64,000 bases of DNA from Myxococcales bacterium (GCA_016720545.1 JADKKK010000003.1:473516-537515); one strand, 5' to 3'; counted from the stretch's first letter, positions 33,600 through 64,000 are shown. A program made the numbers and translations. Notes: generated from the letters alone by a model not told the origin.

Positions 33600-34290
33600 G
33601 CGTGACGAGCGGCTAGTCCCCTGGAAGCGTGATCCCTTCCAGAAGTCGCGCGGCTCGGCCTTTCGCCACAAGGGAGCGAGGGGGTGTCCCGTTTTCGGCG
33701 GCGGTGGGAGGATACTCATGTTCGAGGGTCGGCGTTCTCGCGCGGTCACACCCGAAACCACTGTCCCCTGAGCGCAAAGCGCCGCCTCCACCGCGCGGAA
33801 CGACGTCCGAGTTGAGACGGCCCGCCGCCGCCGAAAACGGGCACCCCCTCGCTCCTCGGAATGACACCGAAGACCGGACTCTGATACGAACCACGACTCC
33901 AGGGACTAGTCTCCTGGAAGCGTGATCCCTTCCAGAAGTCGCGCGGCTCGGCCTTTCGCCACAAAGGGAGCGAGGGGTGTCCCGTTTCCGGCGGGGGGGG
34001 GGGGATGTTCGAGGGTCGGCGTTCGCGCGGTCACACCCGAAACCACTGTCCCCTGAGCGCAAGCGCCGCCTCCACCGCGCGGAACGACGTCCGAGTTGAG
34101 GACGGGCCCGCCGCCGCCGAAAACGGGGCACCCCCTCGCTCCTCGGAATGACACCGAAGACCCGACTTCTGATACGAACCACGACTCCAGGGGACTAGCT
34201 AGTCTCCTGGAAGCGTGATCCCTTCCAGAAGTCGCGCGGCTCGGCCTTTCGCCACAAGGGAGCGAGGGGGTGTCCCGTTTTCGGCGGCGT
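33600..34290. repeat. Tandem direct repeat, ~295-bp unit x 2.3 copies, each unit carrying a ~30-bp internal inverted repeat, a 7-bp hairpin and near-palindromic ends at ACTAGT.
   Basis: Units start at about 33606, 33905 and 34197, each beginning (c)tagtcYcctggaagcgtgatcccttccagaagtcgcgcggctcggcctttcgccaca…. Internally GGGAGCGAGGGGGTGTCCCGTTTTCGGCGGCGG pairs with CCGCCGCCGAAAACGGGCACCCCCTCGCTCC about 110 nt downstream. Copy 2 carries a G10 tract. Confidence 0.7.
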
Positions 34291-52112: not shown

Positions 52113-52174
52113 GCTGCGCTTCACCATCGCGCGGCGTCCGAGAGGTCTTCGACGAGGGTGGGCGCTGGCTTGGA

Positions 52175-52915
52175 CTAGCTGGTTCTCACGAGCCGGCGCA
52201 CCACGTCCGGGTGGTCGGTGGTGATGGCGTCGACCCCAGCCTCCAGCAGCCCGCGCACGATCGCCCGATCGGACGTGGTCCAAGGGGCGACCGCGAGCCC
52301 GGCGCCGTGCGCCGCTGCGACGCTCGCCTCGGTCACGAACGACCAGTGCGGGAGGAGCACGTCGGCCTTCGCGCGGCGCGCCATCTCCAGCTCGTCGACG
52401 GGACGGCACGCGTAGAGAATTCCCGTGAGAATACGCCTAGATAGGAGCTTGATTTGCCTCACCAGCGCGTGGTCGAAGCCGATCACCATCGCGCGGTCGA
52501 GCATGCCGAGGCTCGTGAGCAAGTCGACGACCGCGACGTCGATGCCCGGGGTGTCGACGGGGCAGTTCTTGAGCTCAATCTCGACCCCCACGCCCGCCCC
52601 GTCGGCCCACACGAGCGCCTGCTCGAGCGTGGGGACTCGCTCGCCGGCCCAGGCATCGCCGAACCAGCTCCCCGCGTCGAGCTGCGCGAGCTGCGCGCGC
52701 GTGCGCGACCGCACGGGCCCTCGACCCGACGTGGTGCGGGCGAGCGTGTCGTCGTGGATCACGACGGGCACTCCGTCGCGCGAGAGCTGCACGTCGAGCT
52801 CGATCCAGTCGGCCCCGAGCTTGGCGGCCCGGGCGAAGCTGCCGAGCGTGTTCTCGGGGCTCGTGCCCATCGCTCCCCGATGACCGACCACCGCGGGCCT
52901 GCCAGAGCGCCGCAC
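52175..52915 (-). CDS. Glycerophosphodiester phosphodiesterase family protein. The start is uncertain (GTG at 52915 chosen).
   Basis: VVGHRGAMGTSPENTLGSF (HR…ENT catalytic motif) and the rest of the GDPD fold. Upstream in-frame sequence is Arg-rich junk. Confidence 0.7.
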   Translation of the reverse strand: MRRSGRPAVVGHRGAMGTSPENTLGSFARAAKLGADWIELDVQLSRDGVPVVIHDDTLARTTSGRGPVRSRTRAQLAQLDAGSWFGDAWAGERVPTLEQALVWADGAGVGVEIELKNCPVDTPGIDVAVVDLLTSLGMLDRAMVIGFDHALVRQIKLLSRRILTGILYACRPVDELEMARRAKADVLLPHWSFVTEASVAAAHGAGLAVAPWTTSDRAIVRGLLEAGVDAITTDHPDVVRRLVRTS

Positions 52916-53451: not shown

Positions 53452-54447
53452 ATGGGCACCTCGCGCGCGGCCACGGCCATGCTGACCGCCGGCCTCGTGG
53501 CGGCGCTGCTGGGCGTCTCGTGTGGCCGGTCGCTCCCGTCCTCACCGCACGCGCCGGGCGGCCCGCGGCCCGAGGCGGCGCACCTCGCGAACGAGGGCTG
53601 CACGACCTGCCACGAGGCCATCGGCCAGGAGTGGCGCGCGTCGAACCACGCCGAGGCGTTCCGACACGGCACCTTCCAGCTCGCCTACACCATCGAGCCG
53701 CTCGCTTTCTGCGCTCGGTGTCACGCGCCCGAGGCCGACGCGTCGCGACCGCTGCCGCCCGCGTCGGAGCTCGGCGTGGCGTGCGTCACCTGCCACCCGG
53801 GGGGACGACGCTGGCGGACCCCCACGCCCGCGGGGAGCACGCCGCTCGCTCGCGCCGACGCGGCCTGCGCTTCTTGCCACGAGTTCCCCTTCCCGAGCGA
53901 CGGCGCGGGGACTCCATCGCGCCTCATGCAGAAGACCATGAGCGAGCACGCGATCGCCTCGGCCAAGGGCACGCCGTGCGTCGGGTGCCACATGCCCTCG
54001 GTCGCAGAGCCTGGCGGCGGACGCCACGTGGATCACCGGTTTTTCGCCTCGCGCAGCGCCGAGCTCGTGCGGCGGGCCGCGCGGATCGAGGTGCGTCGTG
54101 AGGGCGCGGCGGCGGTCTTCACGTTCACCCGCGCAAGCGCCGGCCACGCGCTCCCGACCGGCGATATTTTCCGGAGACTGCGCCTCGTCGTGGAGTCGGA
54201 CTCGGCGAAGCGGACCACGTGGCTCGCGAGGAGGACCCGAGAGTCGGCCGCCGACGGGACCGAGCCCGACACGCGGCCTTTCGCCGATGGGCGCGACGTG
54301 TACGTGGCGGTCGTCCCGCTGCACGACCTACGCGGGGACCTCCGCTATCGGGTCGTCTACGAGCGCGTCGCGCACCCCAACGGCGAGGACGACGAGGGCG
54401 CGACGGTCGACGGGGCGATCGAGCTCACCCGCGGCGAGCTCCGCTAG
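53452..54447 (+). CDS. Penta-heme c-type cytochrome lipoprotein.
   Basis: Five CxxCH motifs (CTTCH, CARCH, CVTCH, CASCH, CVGCH). Signal peptide/lipobox LLGVSCG. Confidence 0.8.
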   Translation: MGTSRAATAMLTAGLVAALLGVSCGRSLPSSPHAPGGPRPEAAHLANEGCTTCHEAIGQEWRASNHAEAFRHGTFQLAYTIEPLAFCARCHAPEADASRPLPPASELGVACVTCHPGGRRWRTPTPAGSTPLARADAACASCHEFPFPSDGAGTPSRLMQKTMSEHAIASAKGTPCVGCHMPSVAEPGGGRHVDHRFFASRSAELVRRAARIEVRREGAAAVFTFTRASAGHALPTGDIFRRLRLVVESDSAKRTTWLARRTRESAADGTEPDTRPFADGRDVYVAVVPLHDLRGDLRYRVVYERVAHPNGEDDEGATVDGAIELTRGELR

Positions 54448-54532
54448 AGACGGCGGGGGGGTGGTCGCACCTTGCGCACCTTGCGCGCCTTGCGCGCCTT
54501 GCGCACCGACGGGGCGGGCGTAGCGTGGAGCC

Positions 54533-56371: not shown

Positions 56372-57148
56372 ATGGCACCGTTCTTCATCTTCGGCGGCAT
56401 CCTGCTCCTCGTGGGCGTGATCATCACGGCCGCCAACCTCAAGAACTTCCGGCGCCGTCAGCGCATCCTGCAGACGCCGACCTCGCCGATCGCGCAGGCC
56501 CCGGGCGCCGGCCCCGTCGAGGTGAAGGGTCGCATCGTGCCGGGCGAGCAAGGCGTACTTCAGACGCCCTTCAGCGGTCGGCACGCGGTGTGGTGCCGCA
56601 TCACCGTGCTCGAGCACCGCTCCTCGGGCCGCAACAGCTATTGGGCCACCATCATCAAGGAGACCGACCAGCGCGAGTTCTTCGTGGACGACGGCTCGGG
56701 TCAGATGGCGAAGATCGTGCCCCACGGGGCCGAGGTCATCCTCGACGCGCAGAACGTCGCGAGCTCCGGCACGTTCAACGACGCGTCGCCGCACCTTCAG
56801 GGCTTCCTCGCCTCGCGCGGCCACTCCACCCAGACGTTCCTCGGCTTCAACAAGTCGATGCGCTACACGGAAGAGGTCCTCTCGCCGAACGATCCTCTGT
56901 ACGCGCTCGGACCTTCACGCCGCGAGGCCGGCCCGCCGGTGAACGACGGCTACCGCATGGCGCCCTCGAGCCAGCTCGTATTGGGCGCCGGTCACGGCGA
57001 GGCGCACGAGCTCATCCTCACCAACAAAACCGAGGAGCAGCTCGTGTCGCGGCTGCTCTGGGGGTTCGTGGGTGGCCTCATTTGCGTGGGCGTCTCGCTG
57101 GTGTGCGGCGCAATAGGTCTTATCTTTGCGATCGCCGAAATGATCTAG
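56372..57148 (+). CDS. GIDE-domain-like membrane protein with N- and C-terminal TM helices flanking a soluble domain.
   Basis: N-terminal TM FFIFGGILLLVGVIITAANL and C-terminal TM LLWGFVGGLICVGVSLVCGAIGLIFAIAEMI. Assignment to GIDE is by architecture and recalled family, not verified. Confidence 0.55.
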   Translation: MAPFFIFGGILLLVGVIITAANLKNFRRRQRILQTPTSPIAQAPGAGPVEVKGRIVPGEQGVLQTPFSGRHAVWCRITVLEHRSSGRNSYWATIIKETDQREFFVDDGSGQMAKIVPHGAEVILDAQNVASSGTFNDASPHLQGFLASRGHSTQTFLGFNKSMRYTEEVLSPNDPLYALGPSRREAGPPVNDGYRMAPSSQLVLGAGHGEAHELILTNKTEEQLVSRLLWGFVGGLICVGVSLVCGAIGLIFAIAEMI

Positions 57149-57161
57149 CCGAGGGCGACCG

Positions 57162-58175
57162 CTAGAAGCGACCGAGCAGCGCGCCGCCCGCGCCGCCGGG
57201 GCCCACGACAGGCACGAGGCTGACGCGATCTCGCTCGCGCGGGTTCGGCGTAGCCCACGGGCGCAGCACGAGCGCCGACACCACCGCGGCGCCCAAGAAC
57301 ACGCCGCCGCCAACGTAGCCAACGATCGACCCCGTGCCGAGGCCCGACGCCTTCGACGCGGCGTCCTCGAGGGGCTGGCAGCCGGGCGCCCCGGGCCGAG
57401 GGCAGGGCGCGCCGACGCTGAGGAGCCGGAGCTCGTCGTCCGAGCTGGCCGACATCGCGCCCATCACCGCGCCCGCCCCGAGGCCGGCGACGCCGACCAC
57501 GCCGAGCACCACGGGCACCGTCCACGAAGCCCCGGCTTCGCGCTCCGCGGGAGGCGGCGATGGCGGCGGCGGCGACGTGTCGCCCTCGAGCGCGACCACC
57601 ACCGTGCGCTCGGCGGGGCACGCCACGGGGCGCTTTCGCCGGCGCTGGCCGAAGGTCACGACGACCTCGTGCGGTCCGGCGAGCACCGCGATGGGGTCGG
57701 CGAGCGGGGCCTCGCCCGCGACGACGCCGTCGACGCGCACCTGGGTCCCGCGCGGCGTGCCCGGCGCGAGAGTGATGAGGCTCACCTTCGTGCCGAGGTC
57801 CGCGAAGAGCTTCTTGGCGAGCGTGGTGTGCGCGGGATCGGTCTGCGGCAGCTTCAGGAGCTCGCGAAAGTGGTGGTACGCGCCGAGCACGTGGCCTACG
57901 CGGTGCTCGGCGCGCGCGAGGTTGAACAGCACGTCGGGCTCCTTCAGGACCGCCCACGCCTGCGCGTACTTGAGCCTCGCCTGCTCGTGCTCGCCGCGCC
58001 CCCAGAGCGCGTGGCCCTCGTCGAACCGCTGCTTGGCCTCTGCGCTGAACGCATCCTCGGCGCGGGCCTCGGCGCCGCCCGCCGCCAAGGTGACGAGCCC
58101 CACGGTCAGCCCGAGCGCCGCCCGGACAAGCCACGTGCGCGCTCGCGTCCTCGCTTGCGCTTCACGCTCGCTCAC
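57162..58175 (-). CDS. TPR-like / PEGA-domain membrane protein, paralog A (337 aa).
   Basis: Signal peptide, a TPR-like helical region, a PEGA-like beta domain (TQVRVDGVVAGEAPL…LAGPHEVVV), a poly-Pro linker and C-terminal TM segments. GTG start in a GTGA overlap with the upstream beta-helix gene. Paralogous to 62453..63490. Confidence 0.7.
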   Translation of the reverse strand: MSEREAQARTRARTWLVRAALGLTVGLVTLAAGGAEARAEDAFSAEAKQRFDEGHALWGRGEHEQARLKYAQAWAVLKEPDVLFNLARAEHRVGHVLGAYHHFRELLKLPQTDPAHTTLAKKLFADLGTKVSLITLAPGTPRGTQVRVDGVVAGEAPLADPIAVLAGPHEVVVTFGQRRRKRPVACPAERTVVVALEGDTSPPPPSPPPAEREAGASWTVPVVLGVVGVAGLGAGAVMGAMSASSDDELRLLSVGAPCPRPGAPGCQPLEDAASKASGLGTGSIVGYVGGGVFLGAAVVSALVLRPWATPNPRERDRVSLVPVVGPGGAGGALLGRF

Positions 58176-59470
58176 GGCGCCACCTCCAGCTCGGACTGCG
58201 ACAGCCCCGCGGGGCCGTCATTCACTCCCGCCGCTCCGCCTACGCCTCCCGCTCCCCCGGCTCCTGCCTTCAGCGTCCCGTCTCCCGTGGGCTTCGTTCC
58301 CTTGTAGACTACAGCTACCGAGATCCCGCCCGCTCCGCCAGCTCCCGCTCCGCCCGCTCCGCCCTTCCCGCCGTCTCCCCCGCCGCAGCCCGGGGCAGCC
58401 ACCTCGGCCGCCCCAGGTCCGCCCCCGCCCCCGGTACCCCCGGTACCCCCGGTACCCCCGGCAGCGGCCGTGAGCGTCACGTTCGTCATCGTCACGTTCG
58501 AGCTCACGCTCAGCAGCGCGATGCTCCCGCCTCCGCTCTTGCCCCCCTTCCCTCCCGTACCCCCGCATCCCCCGCAGGCGCCTCCGCCTCCAAAGCTGTC
58601 CGCTCCGCGTGAGCCTCCGCCCCCGCCACCTTGACCGGGCAGTCCGCTCGCTCCCGCGGGCGCCTCCGACGGCGTCCACTCCCCGCTCCCGGATATCCCT
58701 CCCGGCGTCGTCACCTTCGCAGCTGGCGCTCCCTCGGCTCGCTCTGCTCCGGTGTTCCCCGAGCCGTTCGGCTCCGCAGCTACGCAGCTCGCTAGGGCGA
58801 CTCCACCCGCTCCGTCGGTCGGCGCGACCCCGCCCAGCGCCTCGGCTCCGCTCCCAGCCGTGATCCAATGGGGCGCCGCCGCCCCCCCTCCGGATCCGCC
58901 TCCCGAGCTGCACGTGCACGGCTTCGCCGCTCCCCCGCGCTCGCGCTCGCCGGGTTCCGTTCCCGTTCCCCGTCGCGTACGTCCCCGTCGTCCCGCCCGC
59001 TCCAGCCTCCCCAGCGAATCCACCCTTCGCCTCCACTCCCACCTTCCGTAGGCTCACCTTCACCGCCTCCACAGCCCACACTCCCACGCTCGTACGCGAC
59101 CCCGCCGTCCCCGCCGCTCCTTCGATGTCCAGCTCCGCCAGCGTCGCCGTCACCTTCCCTATCTTCACCGCGTACTCTGGCTTCGTCCCCACCACCTTCG
59201 CTCGCCCTCCAGCCTTCCCGAAGTCGCACGTCACTCCCGAGTACACCTCCACGTCGCTCTTCACCTCCACGCTCTCCGCGTACGTCCCCTCGCACACCAC
59301 CACCCGCCCGCGACCCGCAGAGAGCCCCTTCCCCACCGTCTTGTAGGGCTTCGTCCTCGTCCCCGCGTTCCCGTCGTCCCCACTCGGCGACACGTACACT
59401 CCGTAGCTGTCCACTAGGCACTTCCTCAGGGTTCTTCACTGGCTCGTTCGGCGTCTCGCACCCGCCCCCG
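58172..59470 (-). pseudogene. Beta-helix (DUF1565-like) / Gly-rich repeat protein, tandem copy 1. N-terminally truncated (no signal peptide or start) and frameshifted.
   Basis: The unit begins mid-domain (…GCETPNEPVKNPEE, with an extra G against the other copies) directly after the stop of copy 2. The N-part frame 58218..59414 shifts at about 58950 into the C-part frame 58172..59023 (…GGTGGTGG…SELEVAP*). Confidence 0.55.
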
Positions 59471-59473
59471 GCC

Positions 59474-60954
59474 TCACGGCGCCACCTCCAGCTCGGACTG
59501 CGACAGCCCCGCGGGGCCGTCATTCACTCCCGCCGCTCCGCCTACGCCTCCCGCTCCCCCGGCTCCTGCCTTCAGCGTCCCGTCTCCCGTCGGCTTCGTT
59601 CCCTTGTACACTACAGCTACCGAGATCCCGCCCGCTCCGCCCGCTCCCGCTCCGCCCGCTCCGCCCTTCCCGCCGTCTCCCCCGCCGCAGCCGGAGAGCG
59701 AGCCACCTCCAGCCGCCCCGGGTCCGCCCCCGCCCCCGGTACCCCCGGTACCCCCGGTACCCCCGGTACCCCCGGTACCCCCGGCAGCGGCCGTGAGCGT
59801 CACGTTCGTCATCGTCACGTTCGAGCTCACGCTCAGCAGCGCGATGCTCCCGCCTCCGCTCTTGCCCCCCTTCCCTCCCGTACCCCCGCATCCCCCGCAG
59901 GCGCCTCCGCCTCCAAAGCTGTCCGCTCCGCGTGAGCCTCCGCCCCCGCCACCTTGACCGGGCAGTCCGCTCGCTCCCGCGGGCGCCTCCGACGGCGTCC
60001 ACTCCCCGCTCCCGGATATCCCTCCCGGCGTCGTCACCTTCGCAGCTGGCGCTCCCTCGGCTCGGTCTGCTCCGGTGTTCCCCGAGCCGTTCGGCTCCGC
60101 AGCTACGCAGCTCGCTAGTGCGACTCCACCCGCTCCGTCGGTCGGCGCCACTCCGCCCAGCGCCTCGAGCCCGCTCCCAGCCGTATCCAATGGAGCGCCG
60201 CCTCGGGCCCCAGCGGTCACGCCTCCCGAGCTGCACGTGCACGGCTTCGCCGCTCCCCCCGCGCTCGCGCTCGCCGGGTTCCCGTTCCCGTTCCCCGTCG
60301 CGTACGTCCCCGTCGTCCCGCCCGCTCCAGCCTCCCCAGCGAATCCACCCTTCGCCTCCACTCCCACCTTCCGTAGGCTCACCTTCACCGCCTCCACAGC
60401 CCACACTCCCACGCTCGTACGCGACCCCGCCGTCCCCGCCGCTCCTTCGATGTCCAGCTCCGCCAGCGTCGCCGTCACCTTCCCCACTCTCACCGCGTAC
60501 TCTGGCTTCGTCCCCACCACCTTCGCTCGCCCTCCAGCCTTCCCGACGTCGCTCGTCACCCCCGAGTACACCTCCACGTCGCTCTTCACCTCCACGCTCT
60601 CCGCGTACGTCCCTCGCACACCACCACCCGCCCGCGACCCGCAGAGAGCCCCTTCCCCACCGTCTTGTAGGGCTTCGTCCTCGTCCCGGGGTTCCCGTCG
60701 TCCCCACTCGGCGACACGTACACTCCGTAGCTGTCCACTAGGCACTTCTCAGGGTTCTTCACTGGCTCGTTCGGCGTCTCGCACCCGGGCGGAACCACCA
60801 CGTCCACTCCCCCGTCCACCGACCCCTCCCCGACCCCGCCCTCTCCCACCCCTCCGTCCGAAGCCTCCGTCACGTAATAGTTGTTCGTCGTGCACCCCGA
60901 CCCCGAAACCAGGCCCGCCAGCACGAACGCGCACAGCGCCACCCCCGGCCTCAC
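59474..60954 (-). CDS. Secreted beta-helix (DUF1565-like) lipoprotein with a C-terminal Gly-rich repeat region, tandem copy 2. Apparent -1 frameshift at a C-run near 60615.
   Basis: GTG start in a GTGA overlap with the copy-3 stop. Signal peptide/lipobox MRPGVALCAFVLAGLVSGSGC. The N-domain YVSPSGDDGNPGTRTKPYKTVGKGLSAGRGRVVVCEG then continues in another frame (TYAESVEVK…). CCC here corresponds to CCCC in copies 1 and 3. Confidence 0.6.
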
Positions 60955-62434
60955 GGCGCCACCTCCAGCTCGGACTGCGACAGCCCCGCGGGGCCGTCAT
61001 TCACTCCCGCCGCTCCTCCCACGCCTCCCGCTCCCCCCGCTCCCGCCTTCAGCGTCGCGTCTCCCGTCGGCTTCGTTCCCTTGTAGACTACAGCTACCGA
61101 GATCCCGCCCGCTCCGCCCGCTCCCGCTCCGCCCGCTCCGCCCTTCCCGCCGTCTCCCCCGCCGCAGCCCGGCGTTCCGCCACCGGCCACCCCACCAAGT
61201 CCGCCCCCGCCCCCGGTACCCCCGGTACCCCCGGTACCCCCCGGTCCCCCCGGCAGCGGCCGTGAGCGTCACGTTCGTCATCGTCACGTGCGAGCTCACG
61301 CTCAGCAGCGCGATGCTCCCGCCTCCGCCCTTGCCCCCCTTCCCTCCCGTACCCCCGCATCCCCCGCAGCCGCCTCCGCCTCCAAAGCTGTCCGCCCCGC
61401 GTGACCCACCGCCGCCACCCCCTTGACCGGGCAGTCCGCTCGCTCCCGCGGCCGCCTCCGACGGCGTCCCCTCCCGCTCCCGGATATCCCTCCCGGCGTC
61501 GTCACCTTCGCAGCTGGCGCTCCTCGGCTCGGTCTGCTCCGGTGTTCCCCGAGCCGTTCGGCTCCGCAGCTACGCAGCTCGCTAGTGCGACTCCACCCGC
61601 TCCGTCGGTCGGCGCCACTCCGCCGAGCGCCTCGGCTCCGCTCCCAGCCGTGATCAACGGGGCGCCGCCGCCCCCTCCTCCGGATCCGCCTCCCGAGCTG
61701 CACGTGCACGGCTTCGCCGCTCCCCCCGCGCTCGCGCTCGCCGGGTTCCCGTTCCCGTTCCCCGTCGCGTACGTCCCTGTCGTCCCGCCCGCTCCAGCCT
61801 CCCCACCGAATCCACCCTTCGCCTCCACTCCCACCTTCCGAAGGCTCACCTTCACCGCCTCCACAGCCCACACTCCCACGCTCGTACGCGACCCCGCCGT
61901 CCCCGCCGCTCCTTCGATGTCCAGCTCCGCCAGCGTCGCCGTCACCTTCCCCACCTTCACCGCGTACTCGGGCTTCGTCCCCACCACCTTCGCTCGCCCT
62001 CCAGCCTTCCCGAAGTCGCACGTCACTCCCGAGTACACCTCCACGTCGCTCTTCACCTCCACGCTCTCCGCGTACGTCCCCTCGCACACCACCACCCGCC
62101 CGCGACCCGCAGAGAGCCCCTTCCCCACCGTCTTGTAGGGCTTCGTCCTCGTCCCGGGGTTCCCGTCGTCCCCACTCGGCGACACGTACACTCCGTAGCT
62201 GTCCACTAGGCACTTCTCAGGGTTCTTCACTGGCTCGTTCGGCGTCTCGCACCCGGGCGGAACCACCACGTCCACTCCCCCGTCCACCGACCCCTCCCCG
62301 ACCCCGCCCTCTCCCACCCCTCCGTCCGACTCGGCGTCGCACGTTCCGTTGTCGCAGAGCGACGGAATCGAAAAACACCCCGCGAACACGAGCGCGGTGG
62401 TCGTCGCGAGCCCAAGTGCAATGATCTTCTTCAT
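60951..62434 (-). CDS. Secreted beta-helix (DUF1565-like) lipoprotein with a Gly-rich repeat C-terminus, tandem copy 3. At least two single-base deletions in C-runs near 61440-61520 break the frame.
   Basis: Start MKKIIALGLATTTALVFAGC (lipobox) at 62434 with an intact N-domain. The frame is lost after …NTGADRAE (stop at 61502). The C-terminal Gly-rich part and …SELEVAP* (ending 60951) are in other frames. The corresponding copy-2 DNA has one more C at each site. Confidence 0.6.
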
Positions 62435-62452
62435 GTCGAGGCTCCTGGGCGC

Positions 62453-63490
62453 TCAGAACGAACCGGAGATCGAAGCGCCCGAGTAGCCGGGAGCGAACGT
62501 GGGGGCGAGCGTGGGGCCGCGGAGGAAGCCGTGCGTCGGCGTCCTCGGACGGGTCTCCCACGGGCGCATGATGAGCACGCTCACGACAGCGGCCCCGAGC
62601 GCCGCCGAGCCCCCGATGAGCCCGACCGCGCTCACGGTCCGCTGGGTCGAGGCGGCGTCGAGCTTGTCCGAGAGCGCCACGCAACCCGCGCTCGCGCGGT
62701 CTGCGCACACGCCAGATCGCTGGAGCCCCGTCGCGTCGTCGCGCGAGCCCACGCCCACGAAGTGGAACGTCGCGCCCACGCCGAGCCCCACGAGCCCCAC
62801 CCCGGCGAGGACGCCGGGCAAGAGCCAGCTGCCCTTCTCGCCCGCCTCAGCGGGCGGCGGCGTGACAGGCCCGGGGCTCGGCACCGCGGGAAGGGGAGGT
62901 CCATCCGCCGGCGGGTCCTCGTACGTCACGACGACGGTCTCGTTCGCCGCGCACTTCACCGGCTTGAGCTTCTCGCCCTTCGGCCCCTGCATGCGGACGA
63001 GGTGCTCCCCGACCTCGACGAGCACGAGCCCCTGGCCGGGTGTGCCGTCCACCTTGCAGCTCAGCGCGCGGAGGTCGAGCGCGCAGAGCTTGGTGCTCGC
63101 CTGGTCGAGCAGCGCCTGCGCGTCTCGGCGATCCGAGGCCGTCACCTTGTCGTTCTCGGGCAGCGCGAGGTAGCTCTTCAGGAGCGCGGCGGCCTCGAGG
63201 TAGTGGTACGTGCGGATCGTGGCCTCGGCCTGGTTCAAGAGCGAATTCGGGTTCTGTCCGCGCGCGTAGGCCTCGCGAAACTTGGCGCGAGCGCCCTCGT
63301 AGTCGCCCTTCGTGAACAGCTGCGCGCCCTCCTCGTGCAGCTTGGCGGCTTGCGCGCGGCGGCTCTTCAGGTCCTCGTCCTTGGGGCCCGCCAGCGCGTG
63401 GGGCGCGAGCGCCAGGTAGAACGCCACGAGGGCGAGGGCGGCGGCCTTGGTGGTGCACGAGCTCTTCACGGATCTCTCCACTTGCTTCAT
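62453..63490 (-). CDS. TPR-like / PEGA-domain membrane protein, paralog B (~345 aa).
   Basis: Signal peptide MKQVERSVKSSCTTKAAALALVAFYLALAPHALAG, a TPR-like region, a PEGA-like domain (SCKVDGTPGQGLVLVEVGEHLVRM), a Pro-rich linker, TM segments and a C-terminal …SGSF. The track ORF starts at an upstream TTG 63553. Confidence 0.7.
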   Translation of the reverse strand: MKQVERSVKSSCTTKAAALALVAFYLALAPHALAGPKDEDLKSRRAQAAKLHEEGAQLFTKGDYEGARAKFREAYARGQNPNSLLNQAEATIRTYHYLEAAALLKSYLALPENDKVTASDRRDAQALLDQASTKLCALDLRALSCKVDGTPGQGLVLVEVGEHLVRMQGPKGEKLKPVKCAANETVVVTYEDPPADGPPLPAVPSPGPVTPPPAEAGEKGSWLLPGVLAGVGLVGLGVGATFHFVGVGSRDDATGLQRSGVCADRASAGCVALSDKLDAASTQRTVSAVGLIGGSAALGAAVVSVLIMRPWETRPRTPTHGFLRGPTLAPTFAPGYSGASISGSF

Positions 63491-63549
63491 CGAGACGGTC
63501 TCATCGTCACAGGGGGCTCGGCGCGCCGGCGGCGTTCGCGTCGTTCTCC

Positions 63550-64000
63550 TCAAAATGGCCTCATCTTCGACGAGGTGGGCACCGGCTCGACCGATCCGGA
63601 GGCGGTGGCCGACGGGCGCGGCCCAGGCTCGGTGGGACCCGGGGCGGTGGCAGCCGCCGTGACGTGCGCAGGCGCGACCGTCGCCGCGCTCGGCGCGACC
63701 GCGCGCGGAGGTACGGCGGCGACCGTGGGTGCTCCTGCCGAGGGCCCCGGCGGCGTGACGACGGCCGAGGCGAGCCCGCTCGGCGACGCGGCGACGGACG
63801 GCGCGGGCGGAGCGGGCGGAGGGGCCGCGGACGGGACGCTCGAGGCGCTCGGCGCGGCCGCGATCAACGGGCTCACACCCATGTTTCTATTAACAAAATA
63901 GTACACCACGCTCGCCCCGAAGGTCACCATGAGCGCCCCGGAGACGGCCCCGACGAGGCGACGGCGACGGCGGGCCGCGCCCTCCGCGGCCTCTTCTGCT
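63550..64000 (-). CDS. Membrane-anchored protein, 3' part only (start lies beyond the window end). RRRRR + TM + Pro/Ala-rich region.
   Basis: The frame is open through 64000 (…AEEAAEGAARRRRRLVGAVSGALMVTFGASVVYYFVNRNMGVSPLIAAAPSASSVPSAAPPPAPP…MRPF*). The in-window ATG of the track ORF is internal. Confidence 0.45.
   Translation of the reverse strand, partial: AEEAAEGAARRRRRLVGAVSGALMVTFGASVVYYFVNRNMGVSPLIAAAPSASSVPSAAPPPAPPAPSVAASPSGLASAVVTPPGPSAGAPTVAAVPPRAVAPSAATVAPAHVTAAATAPGPTEPGPRPSATASGSVEPVPTSSKMRPF

What the first reader, a model, noticed from the sequence alone, without database searches (positions are those of the whole stretch)
57162..63553. Minus-strand cluster of two PEGA/TPR membrane proteins bracketing three tandem beta-helix/Gly-rich repeat lipoprotein genes
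Gene order on the minus strand is PEGA/TPR-B, BH3, BH2, BH1 (truncated), PEGA/TPR-A. Every junction I could read is a GTGA stop/start overlap (copy 3 to copy 2, BH1 to PEGA-A), pointing to translational coupling. The BH proteins have an N-terminal DUF1565/pectate-lyase-like start (YVSPSGDDGNPGTRTKPYKTVGKGL…VVVCEGTYAESV). They are followed by GGxGGxGG tracts and a GGSIALLSVSSNVTMTNVTLTAAAGG segment reminiscent of Pmp-type GGA(I/L) repeats. The bracketing proteins are paralogs that share signal peptide, TPR-like helices, a PEGA-like domain, a poly-Pro linker and TM segments. A PEGA/TPR membrane protein paired with tandem secreted beta-helix adhesin-like proteins could be a dedicated surface-display or export module. 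I do not know of a described system with this architecture.
Basis: partly seen in the sequence, partly recalled or inferred. Interest (0 to 1): 0.75.

Follow-up and report, generated by a model that had tools for sequence, protein, structure and literature searches.

The report
Myxobacterial TPR-PEGA protein plus glycine-rich lipoprotein genes
A membrane protein gene followed by recently amplified surface-type lipoprotein genes forms a gene module that is conserved across one order of soil and sludge myxobacteria (Polyangiales), has no described function, and is probably damaged in this window only by assembly errors.

Summary
On the minus strand lie PEGA/TPR-B, three tandem copies (93-100% identical DNA) of a lipoprotein gene, and PEGA/TPR-A, with GTGA stop/start overlaps.

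- **Synteny.** A PEGA/TPR gene lies next to the lipoprotein genes in 17 of 19 lipoprotein-seeded loci (15 directly upstream, same strand). All 8 informative PEGA-seeded loci have an adjacent lipoprotein gene. The conserved unit is one PEGA/TPR gene followed by 1-5 lipoprotein genes, not a bracket.
- **Frameshifts.** All three copies here are frameshifted. Sister assemblies of the same species have 3-4 copies with different indels, and Illumina contigs read in frame, so assembly error is likely.
- **Not supported.** Pmp and Slam membership fail. No conserved catalytic residues are seen.
- **Function.** A dedicated periplasmic partner for variable surface lipoproteins is my inference, not a result.

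The parts
63550..64000 (-). 3' part of an upstream gene that runs off the window. In sister assembly L001 it encodes 290 aa: a single TM segment and a Pro/Ala-rich tail ending in KMRPF. Its stop overlaps the longest PEGA-B ORF.
   Evidence: The tail resembles the C-terminal part of Ser/Thr kinases found upstream of PEGA genes in other loci. Whether it belongs to the module is uncertain.
62453..63490 (-). PEGA/TPR-B, the head gene of the module (345 aa from ATG 63490; the longest ORF starts at TTG 63553). Domains: signal peptide, TPR helices, PEGA-like beta-sandwich, Pro-rich linker, two Gly-rich hydrophobic helices, terminal beta-hairpin ending in Phe.
   Evidence: (family HMM 311.7 bits)
60951..62434 (-). 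BH3, lipoprotein copy 3. ATG is preceded by AGGAG. The signal peptide ends in the lipobox LVFAGC. The N-terminal ~297 aa are intact, followed by three frameshifts near 61524, 61470 and 61242.
   Evidence: (DUF1565 E 6.3e-5)
59474..60954 (-). BH2, lipoprotein copy 2. The GTG start overlaps the BH3 stop (GTGA). It has one 1-nt deletion in a G run near 60614. Repaired, it gives a 493-aa protein, the one used for modelling.
58172..59477 (-). BH1, lipoprotein copy 1. It lacks about 165 nt encoding the signal peptide and tether, and carries 1-nt indels at 59425, 58959, 58937, 58885, 58862 and 58406/58397. Its stop overlaps the PEGA-A start (GTGA).
   Evidence: Illumina contigs read the 3' end in one frame
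57162..58175 (-). PEGA/TPR-A (337 aa), a trailing paralog with no BH gene after it. The next gene, a GIDE-domain protein at 56372-57148 on the plus strand, is convergent.
59733..59784 (-). In-frame 9-nt repeat (TACCGGGGG on the coding strand) that encodes the GGT-type tract of the Gly-rich domain. It has 5.8 units here, 3.8 units at 58428-58461 and 4.8 units at 61210-61253.

Best explanation
**What it is (well supported).** This is a gene module of Polyangiales myxobacteria. The first gene encodes a membrane-anchored protein whose TPR and PEGA domains face the periplasm. It is followed closely, on the same strand, by one to five genes for about 490-500-aa lipoproteins.

Each lipoprotein has four parts:
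- a lipidated Cys;
- a 35-50-aa low-complexity tether;
- a short right-handed beta-helix with a DUF1565-type cap;
- a Cys-stabilised, Gly-rich C-terminal half whose Gly residues recur every third position. I infer this half is built of polyglycine-II-type helices.

In this species the lipoprotein gene was amplified recently to 3-4 near-identical copies. The frameshifts and the 'truncated' copy in this window are most likely consensus errors of a long-read metagenome assembly inside a repeat that short reads could not polish.

**How it most likely works (inferred).**
- The lipoproteins leave the inner membrane. None of the 32 lipoboxes detected in family members (47 sequences aligned) has the +2 Lys that retains lipoproteins in the inner membrane of Myxococcus.
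- They act as non-enzymatic, variable binding or coat proteins of the outer envelope.
- The TPR-PEGA protein is their dedicated, more conserved partner. Its TPR groove would bind the tether or the unfolded Gly-rich region, and would hold, sort or anchor the lipoproteins at the envelope.
- One partner serves several paralogous cargoes.
For: **Anatomy**
- gene order and repaired proteins.
- no Foldseek PDB hit at E <= 0.001. The listed hits align roughly 100-220 columns and TMq is <= 0.21, so at most a fraction of the model is matched.
- 195 residues at pLDDT 94-98 carry almost no DSSP helix or strand. Their Gly autocorrelation peaks at lag 3 (0.31-0.57).
- the invariant residues are Gly and Cys, the lipobox Cys is conserved in >= 90% of members, and no member has +2 Lys. 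The +2 Lys rule is from PMC3222651.

**Partner protein**

**Synteny**
- among 19 loci with a strong BH match, 15 have a PEGA gene immediately upstream on the same strand and 2 have one adjacent and convergent. The 15 include five cultured Sorangium genomes.
- 8 of 8 informative PEGA-seeded loci have an adjacent BH gene.
- the PEGA-to-BH spacing is 9-13 nt in L003.

**Partner conserved, cargo variable**
- in L003 the four PEGA paralogs differ by 14-27%, while their BH partners differ by 52-58%.

**Wider theme**
- a distant TPR-PEGA relative (L043) is followed by a Gly-rich lipoprotein of a different family.

**Assembly artefact**
- the 10.7 kb of flank has no 1-nt indel against L001, whereas the repeats have 26-38 gap opens per alignment. 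The three assemblies show different indels and 3-4 copies. One contig ends inside the repeat. Illumina contigs read in frame.
Against: - No experiment or interaction prediction links the two proteins.
- The topology of the partner is unresolved. An invariant Cys pair sits in the loop between the two hydrophobic helices. The simplest topology puts that loop in the cytoplasm, where a disulfide would not form.
- Four PEGA-seeded loci, and L008 and L026, have the BH gene convergent rather than co-transcribed.
- In this window the pattern is reversed. The two PEGA paralogs share only 32% identity, while the BH copies are 90-98% identical.
- The polyglycine-II reading rests on the absence of DSSP secondary structure and on Gly periodicity. 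I had no coordinates. The only PGII protein among the Foldseek hits (gp38) is insignificant at E 3.3.
- The frameshifts could be real, since every assembly available carries some.
Confidence: 0.4

Rival explanations
1. This is a signalling module. The BH lipoprotein is an extracytoplasmic ligand-binding co-receptor, and the TPR-PEGA membrane protein relays the signal to a neighbouring membrane Ser/Thr kinase.
For: - Ser/Thr kinases (kinase domain, TM segment, and in several a Pro/Ala-rich tail) lie within a few kb upstream of the PEGA gene in 11 loci. They are on the same strand in most, and divergent in L001 and L009.
- In L043 a kinase carrying its own PEGA-like C-terminal domain overlaps the start of a TPR-PEGA gene.
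- The window's upstream 290-aa protein resembles the non-kinase tail of those kinases.
Against: - No kinase is seen in the five Sorangium loci or in L003, L011, L012, L016 and L017.
- Six of the 11 kinases are 78-100% identical to one another in the kinase domain, so they are not independent observations.
- Kinases are very abundant in these genomes (my own background knowledge), so some adjacency is expected by chance.
- The TPR-PEGA protein has no recognisable cytoplasmic signalling domain.
Confidence: 0.15
2. The BH proteins are envelope polysaccharide-active enzymes (lyase or esterase of the pectin-lyase fold), and the TPR-PEGA protein scaffolds them at an exopolysaccharide machinery.
For: The best structural matches are pectin methylesterase, pectate lyase, rhamnogalacturonan lyase, alginate lyase and phage depolymerases. 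PEGA domains occur in cell-surface proteins (PMC2447325).
Against: - Only about 170 residues align, at 9-18% identity.
- Across 47 homologs the invariant and near-invariant residues are Gly, Cys and a few structural residues (F79, V80, P95, R109, Y117, S181, W319, Q334). There is no conserved Asp/Glu/Lys/His cluster.
- No polysaccharide synthesis or export genes recur in the neighbourhoods.
Confidence: 0.12
3. In this organism the array is truly decaying or phase-variable. The frameshifts in G runs and the N-terminal deletion of BH1 are real, so few or no BH proteins are made.
For: - All three copies are disrupted.
- Two other assemblies of the species also carry frameshifts.
- The indels sit in short G runs, and the array varies in copy number (3 or 4).
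Against: - Indel positions differ between assemblies, and L001 has two copies in an open frame.
- The flanks have no 1-nt indels.
- Short-read contigs L045 and L046 read the last copy's 3' 190 codons in one frame.
- The window's 'PGAAEVAAPGCG' segment looks like a chimera of the two variant types found in the other copies.
- Contig JADIZX010000009.1 ends in the repeat with 125 gap opens in 3.9 kb.
Confidence: 0.15
4. The two families are neighbours only because they were duplicated and moved together. There is no functional coupling.
For: Modules occur in series. In L003 and L004 they are interleaved with DUF559 genes and a reverse transcriptase gene, which suggests duplication or mobility.
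Against: - Adjacency and order are kept from Sorangium to Labilithrix and Byssovorax, while the proteins have diverged to 30-40% identity.
- Spacing is 9-20 nt or overlapping.
- A distant TPR-PEGA relative is again followed by a Gly-rich lipoprotein.
Confidence: 0.08

Closest known systems
Slam (surface lipoprotein assembly modulator) with its adjacent surface lipoprotein genes, Neisseria and other Proteobacteria (PMC5449769, PMC9090332)
   Same: A gene for an envelope protein with an N-terminal periplasmic TPR domain sits next to one or more genes for its lipoprotein cargo. The partner is conserved and the cargo is variable. One family member and one long relative hit Pfam TPR_Slam.
   Different: There is no DUF560 14-strand beta-barrel. 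The C-terminal ~120 aa are modelled as two hydrophobic helices and one beta-hairpin. The phylum and the cargo fold both differ. Surface exposure is untested.
Periplasmic TPR scaffolds and chaperones of envelope biogenesis (YbgF/CpoB, LpoP, BamD, YfgM, T9SS SprE)
   Different: None combines TPR with a PEGA beta-sandwich, a Pro linker and a C-terminal hydrophobic hairpin. None is encoded in front of tandem lipoprotein genes.
Pectin-lyase-fold (right-handed beta-helix) surface proteins: DUF1565 proteins, Leptospira LIC10774-type surface proteins, PfbA, autotransporter passengers (Vag8, pertactin, UpaB)
   Same: The beta-helix cap motif (FV..G.D.N.GT...P..T...A......V.V..GTY.E) and the fold match. 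The predicted location is the envelope.
   Different: Only about 7 rungs (170 aa) match. Pfam DUF1565 covers positions 2-56 of 257. The NCBIfam LIC10774 score is 25.6 against a cut-off of 380. There is no autotransporter barrel, and the C-terminal half is unrelated.
Polyglycine-II bundle proteins: snow-flea antifreeze protein, phage gp38 adhesin tip, mycobacterial PE_PGRS (PMC9436101, PMC12892980)
   Same: They share GGX-type tracts with three-residue Gly periodicity, Cys staples, and high model confidence without alpha or beta secondary structure. In the known cases PGII domains form surface-binding faces.
   Different: No significant sequence or fold match was found: gp38 scores E 3.3 in Foldseek. 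Here the Gly-rich segments alternate with beta-strand rungs and are fused to a beta-helix. PGII geometry was not verified.
Chlamydial polymorphic membrane proteins (Pmp)
   Same: Two segments of the type GG(A/S)I..L followed by beta-strands, plus a beta-helix fold.
   Different: There is no repeated GGA(I/L/V)/FxxN array, no Pfam Pmp hit and no C-terminal autotransporter domain. The protein is lipoprotein-anchored instead.

Membership tests
TPR repeat proteins | Paired antiparallel helices of the 34-aa TPR motif | tested here: met
PEGA domain (PF08308) | Match to the Pfam PEGA profile; ~70-aa beta-sandwich | tested here: inconclusive
DUF1565 (PF07602) / pectin-lyase-fold beta-helix | Match to the profile; right-handed parallel beta-helix | tested here: met
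Bacterial lipoproteins | Signal peptide ending in a lipobox with an invariant Cys | tested here: met
   BH3 begins MKKIIALGLATTTALVFAG|C. BH2 has ...LVSGSG|C. This Cys is conserved in >= 90% of 47 homologs. Lipidation itself cannot be tested here.
Slam / DUF560 translocon | C-terminal DUF560 14-stranded outer-membrane beta-barrel | tested here: not met
   None of the 69 members hits DUF560. Only about 120 aa follow the linker, modelled as two helices and one hairpin.
Slam / DUF560 translocon | N-terminal periplasmic TPR domain and a gene adjacent to lipoprotein cargo genes | tested here: met
   This is a functional analogy only.
Chlamydial Pmp / autotransporters | Multiple GGA(I/L/V) and FxxN repeats; C-terminal beta-barrel translocator | tested here: not met
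   No Pfam hit on the repaired protein at E <= 1. Only two GG(S/A)I segments are present. The protein ends in a short strand at 485-490 with no barrel.
Polyglycine-II bundle proteins | Stacked left-handed PGII helices built from Gly-X-X or GGX repeats | tested here: inconclusive
   Gly autocorrelation peaks at lag 3, at 0.31-0.57. High pLDDT without DSSP elements. There is no significant fold or sequence match to known PGII proteins.
LIC10774/LIC10365 surface proteins (NCBIfam NF047854) | Score above the curated cut-off | tested here: not met
   25.6 bits against a cut-off of 380. Only residues 66-161 match.

The most novel reading that the evidence does not exclude
The TPR-PEGA membrane protein is a new kind of dedicated lipoprotein-handling factor. 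It would be a functional analogue of Slam without a beta-barrel, possibly acting as an oligomer through its Gly-rich helices and its terminal beta-hairpin with the invariant Phe. It would deliver or anchor a previously unrecognised fold family at the cell surface of Polyangiales: a beta-helix fused to a polyglycine-II domain. Those lipoproteins would diversify and amplify as variable binding or coat proteins.
Probability: 0.2. Interest if true: 0.75.

Novelty: new variant of a known kind. Interest (0 to 1): 0.45.

Why it matters
How lipoproteins reach and are held at the surface is known for only a few bacterial groups, and not for myxobacteria beyond Myxococcus sorting signals. This module is a conserved pairing of a periplasmic TPR-PEGA membrane protein with variable, amplifiable lipoproteins. 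It is present in cultured Sorangium strains, which makes them a candidate system for testing this experimentally.

The Gly-rich half of the lipoprotein is modelled with high confidence yet has no significant counterpart in the PDB. It would enlarge the small set of ordered glycine-rich folds.

There is also a practical lesson. Apparent pseudogene arrays inside near-identical tandem repeats of long-read MAGs should not be read as biology without read-level checks.

Tried and rejected
**Families considered and rejected**
- Pmp membership: no Pfam hit, only two motif-like segments, no barrel.
- Slam membership: no DUF560.
- Enzyme reading: no conserved catalytic residues.
- MYXO-CTERM or other C-terminal sorting tags on BH: the protein ends in a soluble ...SELEVAP with no TM segment.
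- NCBIfam names: only far-sub-threshold hits to BatC, BamD and LIC10774.

**Searches that gave nothing useful**
- Profile search of PDB sequences: only the beta-helix cap matched, best E 0.0093.
- Promoter and terminator scan: at chance level.
- Pfam PF22842, precomputed for four homologs, was not reproduced at E <= 0.01.
I repeated it with the 14-sequence alignment.
- Exact-sequence look-ups of the window's own PEGA-A and of P0286 found no record, so I did not identify the window's source assembly.
- Long multi-TPR relatives of the PEGA family carry only extra TPRs and no informative fusion partner.
- Literature searches for PEGA, DUF1565 and myxobacterial lipoprotein/beta-helix terms returned no description of this module.


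Full report
**1. The observation**

The region is about 72-76% G+C, with strong G excess on the minus (coding) strand. On the minus strand the order is:
- PEGA/TPR-B: longest ORF 62453-63553; likely start ATG 63490, giving 345 aa as in the gene call of sister assembly L001.
- Three tandem units of one gene: BH3 62434-60951, BH2 60954-59474, BH1 59477-58172.
- PEGA/TPR-A: 58175-57162.

The three units are direct DNA repeats with periods of 1302-1477 nt (families D1-D5). Within four of the five repeat families the copies are 93-100% identical.

GTGA stop/start overlaps are present at BH3/BH2, BH2/BH1 and BH1/PEGA-A. PEGA-B and BH3 are separated by 18 nt containing an AGGAG site. PEGA-A and PEGA-B are paralogs at 32% identity, E = 2e-30.

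**2. State of the BH genes in this window**

No copy is intact.
- BH2 has one 1-nt deletion in a G run near 60614. Repairing it gives a 493-aa protein.
- BH3 has a good start, RBS and lipoprotein signal (…LVFAG|C), but three frameshifts further on.
- BH1 lacks about 165 nt encoding the signal peptide and tether, and has several 1-nt indels.

I compared the window with three other assemblies of the same species.
- **L001** (GCA_963852875.1). It is 99.4-99.9% identical to the window over 10.7 kb of flank with no 1-nt indel, yet shows 26-38 gap opens per alignment within the repeats. It has four BH copies, all with signal peptides. Two are called as open frames of 487 and 499 aa, and its frameshifts sit at other positions.
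- **L044** (GCA_016704525.1). The contig ends inside the repeat, has three copies, and has 125 gap opens in 3.9 kb, including in PEGA-B.
- **L045 and L046** (short-read wastewater contigs). They read the last 190 codons of the terminal copy in one frame. Where the window has 'PGAAEVAAPGCG', they have the normal variant 'LGGVAGGGTPGCG'. The window's version looks like a chimera of the two variant types found in the other copies.

The simplest reading is residual long-read consensus error in a repeat that short reads could not polish. Real decay or phase variation is not excluded; I put it at 0.15.

Copy number (3 or 4) and the number of in-frame 9-nt units encoding the GGT tract (3.8 to 5.8 in the window) also vary.

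**3. The BH protein**

- *Family size and naming.* Searching with the repaired BH2 gave 399 hits at E <= 0.001 among the candidates scored. The listed ones are mostly 480-530 aa, and those with an organism name come from Myxococcota (Labilithrix, Polyangiaceae, Pendulispora). Where named at all, they are called 'hypothetical' or 'DUF1565 domain-containing'.
- *Pfam.* Only the first ~55 profile positions of DUF1565 match (22.9 bits against a cut-off of 20.3).
- *Model.* An AF2 model built on 47 homologs has pLDDT 88.4 and pTM 0.81.
  - Residues 1-60 (signal peptide and tether) are disordered.
  - In the C-terminal half, about 195 residues are modelled at pLDDT 94-98 with almost no DSSP helix or strand. 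Three beta segments interrupt them (370-389, 445-463, 485-490).
- *No structural counterpart.* Foldseek finds no PDB hit at E <= 0.001. The listed hits align roughly 100-220 columns and TMq is <= 0.21, so at most a fraction of the model is matched.
- *Glycine pattern.* These segments are 35-62% Gly, and the Gly positions recur every third residue (autocorrelation 0.31-0.57 at lag 3). From this I infer polyglycine-II-type helices, as in snow-flea antifreeze protein, phage gp38 and the PE_PGRS models (PMC9436101, PMC12892980). I could not verify the geometry.
- *Conserved residues.* Across the family the invariant residues are Gly and six Cys (C58, C113, C241, C283, C356, C423). There is no conserved acidic or basic cluster, which argues against an enzyme.
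- *Sorting.* The lipobox Cys is conserved in >= 90% of members. None of the 32 lipoboxes my pattern found has Lys at +2, the inner-membrane retention signal in Myxococcus (PMC3222651). Applying that rule to Polyangiales is an extrapolation.

**4. The PEGA/TPR protein**

- *Family size.* The word-indexed search found 14 relatives. The exhaustive profile search found 846 50%-identity clusters at E <= 1e-30; most of the 150 best-scoring hits listed are ~300-370 aa and match nearly the whole profile.
- *Domains at family level.* Of 69 members, 46 hit TPR_2 and 12 hit PEGA (best E 1.4e-6). The window proteins themselves are sub-threshold.
- *Model.* The AF2 model (pLDDT 84, pTM 0.54) shows:
  - a signal helix at 3-32;
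  - five TPR-type helices at 42-128;
  - a beta-sandwich at 131-194;
  - a Pro-rich linker;
  - two long helices at 219-255 and 264-304, pLDDT about 70-80;
  - a terminal beta-hairpin at 317-336.
- *Hydrophobicity and invariants.* The hydrophobic cores of the two long helices are 218-241 and 283-305. C258 and C266, in the loop between them, and the C-terminal F337 are invariant in 69 sequences.
- *Topology.* This is unresolved. A periplasmic TPR-PEGA region with an inner-membrane hairpin would put the invariant Cys pair in the cytoplasm. The terminal hairpin with a final Phe recalls outer-membrane beta-signals, but there is no barrel.

**5. Synteny**

- *Seeding with BH (GTDB genomes).* The scan returned 23 loci, which I searched with HMMs of both families on six-frame ORFs.
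  - Of the 19 loci with a strong BH match, 15 have a PEGA/TPR gene immediately upstream on the same strand, followed by 1-5 BH genes. They include Polyangiaceae MAGs, Labilithrix, Byssovorax, and five cultured Sorangium strains (So0157-2, So ce1000, ce726, ceGT47, ce131).
  - Two have an adjacent convergent PEGA gene (L008, L026). Two have none within 8 kb (L018, L027).
  - Four loci with only weak BH relatives (Bradymonadia, Sandaracinus and others) have no PEGA gene.
- *Seeding with PEGA (metagenomes).* All 8 loci with enough downstream sequence have an adjacent BH gene: 4 co-directional and 4 convergent.
- *Serial modules.* Modules often recur in series. L003 has four, with PEGA-to-BH spacers of 9-13 nt.
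- *The bracket is not conserved.* The conserved unit is one PEGA gene followed by one or more BH genes. PEGA-A in the window is a trailing copy, as also seen in L013.
- *Divergence within arrays.* Tandem BH paralogs elsewhere are usually 38-76% identical, so the 90-98% identity in this species marks a recent amplification.
- *Partner versus cargo.* In L003 the four PEGA paralogs differ by 14-27% while their BH partners differ by 52-58%. Over all 19 pairs the two distance matrices correlate (Mantel r 0.54, 0 of 2000 permutations). Shared phylogeny alone would produce that correlation.
- *A distant relative.* The TPR-PEGA protein P0134 (L043) is preceded by a Ser/Thr kinase with its own PEGA-like domain. 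It is followed by a Gly-rich lipoprotein that does not match the BH profile. The link between TPR-PEGA proteins and Gly-rich lipoproteins may therefore be wider than this family.

**6. Mechanism**

*Shown:*
- two extracytoplasmic protein families, by signal peptide or lipobox and by conserved Cys;
- tight, directional and phylogenetically wide gene linkage;
- a 1:n gene ratio;
- a TPR partner-binding fold;
- a non-enzymatic conservation pattern in BH.

*Inferred:*
- The TPR-PEGA protein is a dedicated partner that binds and sorts, holds or anchors the lipoproteins.
- The lipoproteins act as variable binding or coat proteins of the outer envelope.

I put this at about 0.4. The rivals are kinase-linked signalling (0.15), polysaccharide-active enzymes (0.12), real pseudogenisation or phase variation in this genome (0.15), and linkage without function (0.08).

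**7. Comparison with known systems**

- The nearest functional analogue is Slam with its adjacent surface lipoproteins (PMC5449769, PMC9090332): a TPR domain, adjacency to cargo, and a conserved partner with variable cargo. The defining DUF560 barrel is absent, so this is not a Slam.
- Pmp and autotransporter membership fail.
- DUF1565 and pectin-lyase-fold membership hold only for the N-terminal cap and the fold.
- Literature searches found no description of the module, and database names are 'hypothetical protein'.

**8. Verdict**

This is a real, conserved and undescribed gene module built from known domain types, with one structurally unusual Gly-rich domain. Its function is not established, and its apparent disruption in this window is probably an artefact. 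I rate it a new variant of a known kind, with interest 0.45.

Noticed in passing
window 33612-33911 and 33906-34198; L001 15979-16283; L044 11258-11562: A ~295-nt element with terminal inverted repeats (GCTAGTCCCCTGGA…TCCAGGGACTAGTC). It folds into one long hairpin: -91 kcal/mol, z = -7.1 against shuffles. It occurs as two tandem copies in the window. A further 97%-identical copy is inserted in two sister assemblies at the site corresponding to window ~52172-52178, where the window lacks it. It looks like a strain-polymorphic MITE-like element. The only Rfam match is a far-sub-threshold hit to a MITE-derived plant miRNA hairpin family.
   Followed up: partly
L001 1-1952; L006, L007, L009, L010, L013, L030, L034, L039, L040, L042 upstream of the PEGA gene: Membrane Ser/Thr kinases lie within a few kb upstream of the PEGA gene in 11 loci. 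They have a kinase domain, a long linker and one TM segment, and several have a Pro/Ala/Thr-rich tail. The association is partial and partly redundant: six of the kinases are closely related, and the Sorangium loci have none.
   Followed up: partly
window 63550-64000 (minus strand), continuing beyond the window; L001 2109-2981: A 290-aa protein with one TM segment and a Pro/Ala-rich tail ending in KMRPF. It has no Pfam hit. Its stop overlaps the longest PEGA-B ORF. It resembles the non-kinase C-terminal part of the upstream kinases seen in other loci.
   Followed up: partly
L043 1-3152: A distant TPR-PEGA-TM relative (P0134). It is preceded by a Ser/Thr kinase with a C-terminal PEGA-like domain, and the two genes overlap. 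It is followed by a lipoprotein (…LTAAAC) rich in GGxGG tracts that does not match the BH profile.
   Followed up: partly
L003 2685-3707 and 9426-9782; L004 841-1197, 2465-3532, 6097-6453, 9426-9782: DUF559 genes on the opposite strand, and in L004 a reverse transcriptase gene, sit between successive PEGA-BH modules. They may relate to how the modules were duplicated.
   Followed up: no
window 54487-54504: An 18-nt segment (two 9-nt units) is present in the window and absent in L001. It lies in a short tandem repeat just downstream of the multihaem cytochrome-like gene (53452-54447). It is the only indel in 10.7 kb of flank.
   Followed up: no
L003 modules at 367, 3722, 6963 and 10289: Within one genome the four PEGA paralogs are much more alike (14-27% different) than their adjacent BH lipoproteins (52-58% different). 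In the window the pattern is opposite: PEGA-A and PEGA-B share 32% identity, while the BH copies are 90-98% identical.
   Followed up: partly
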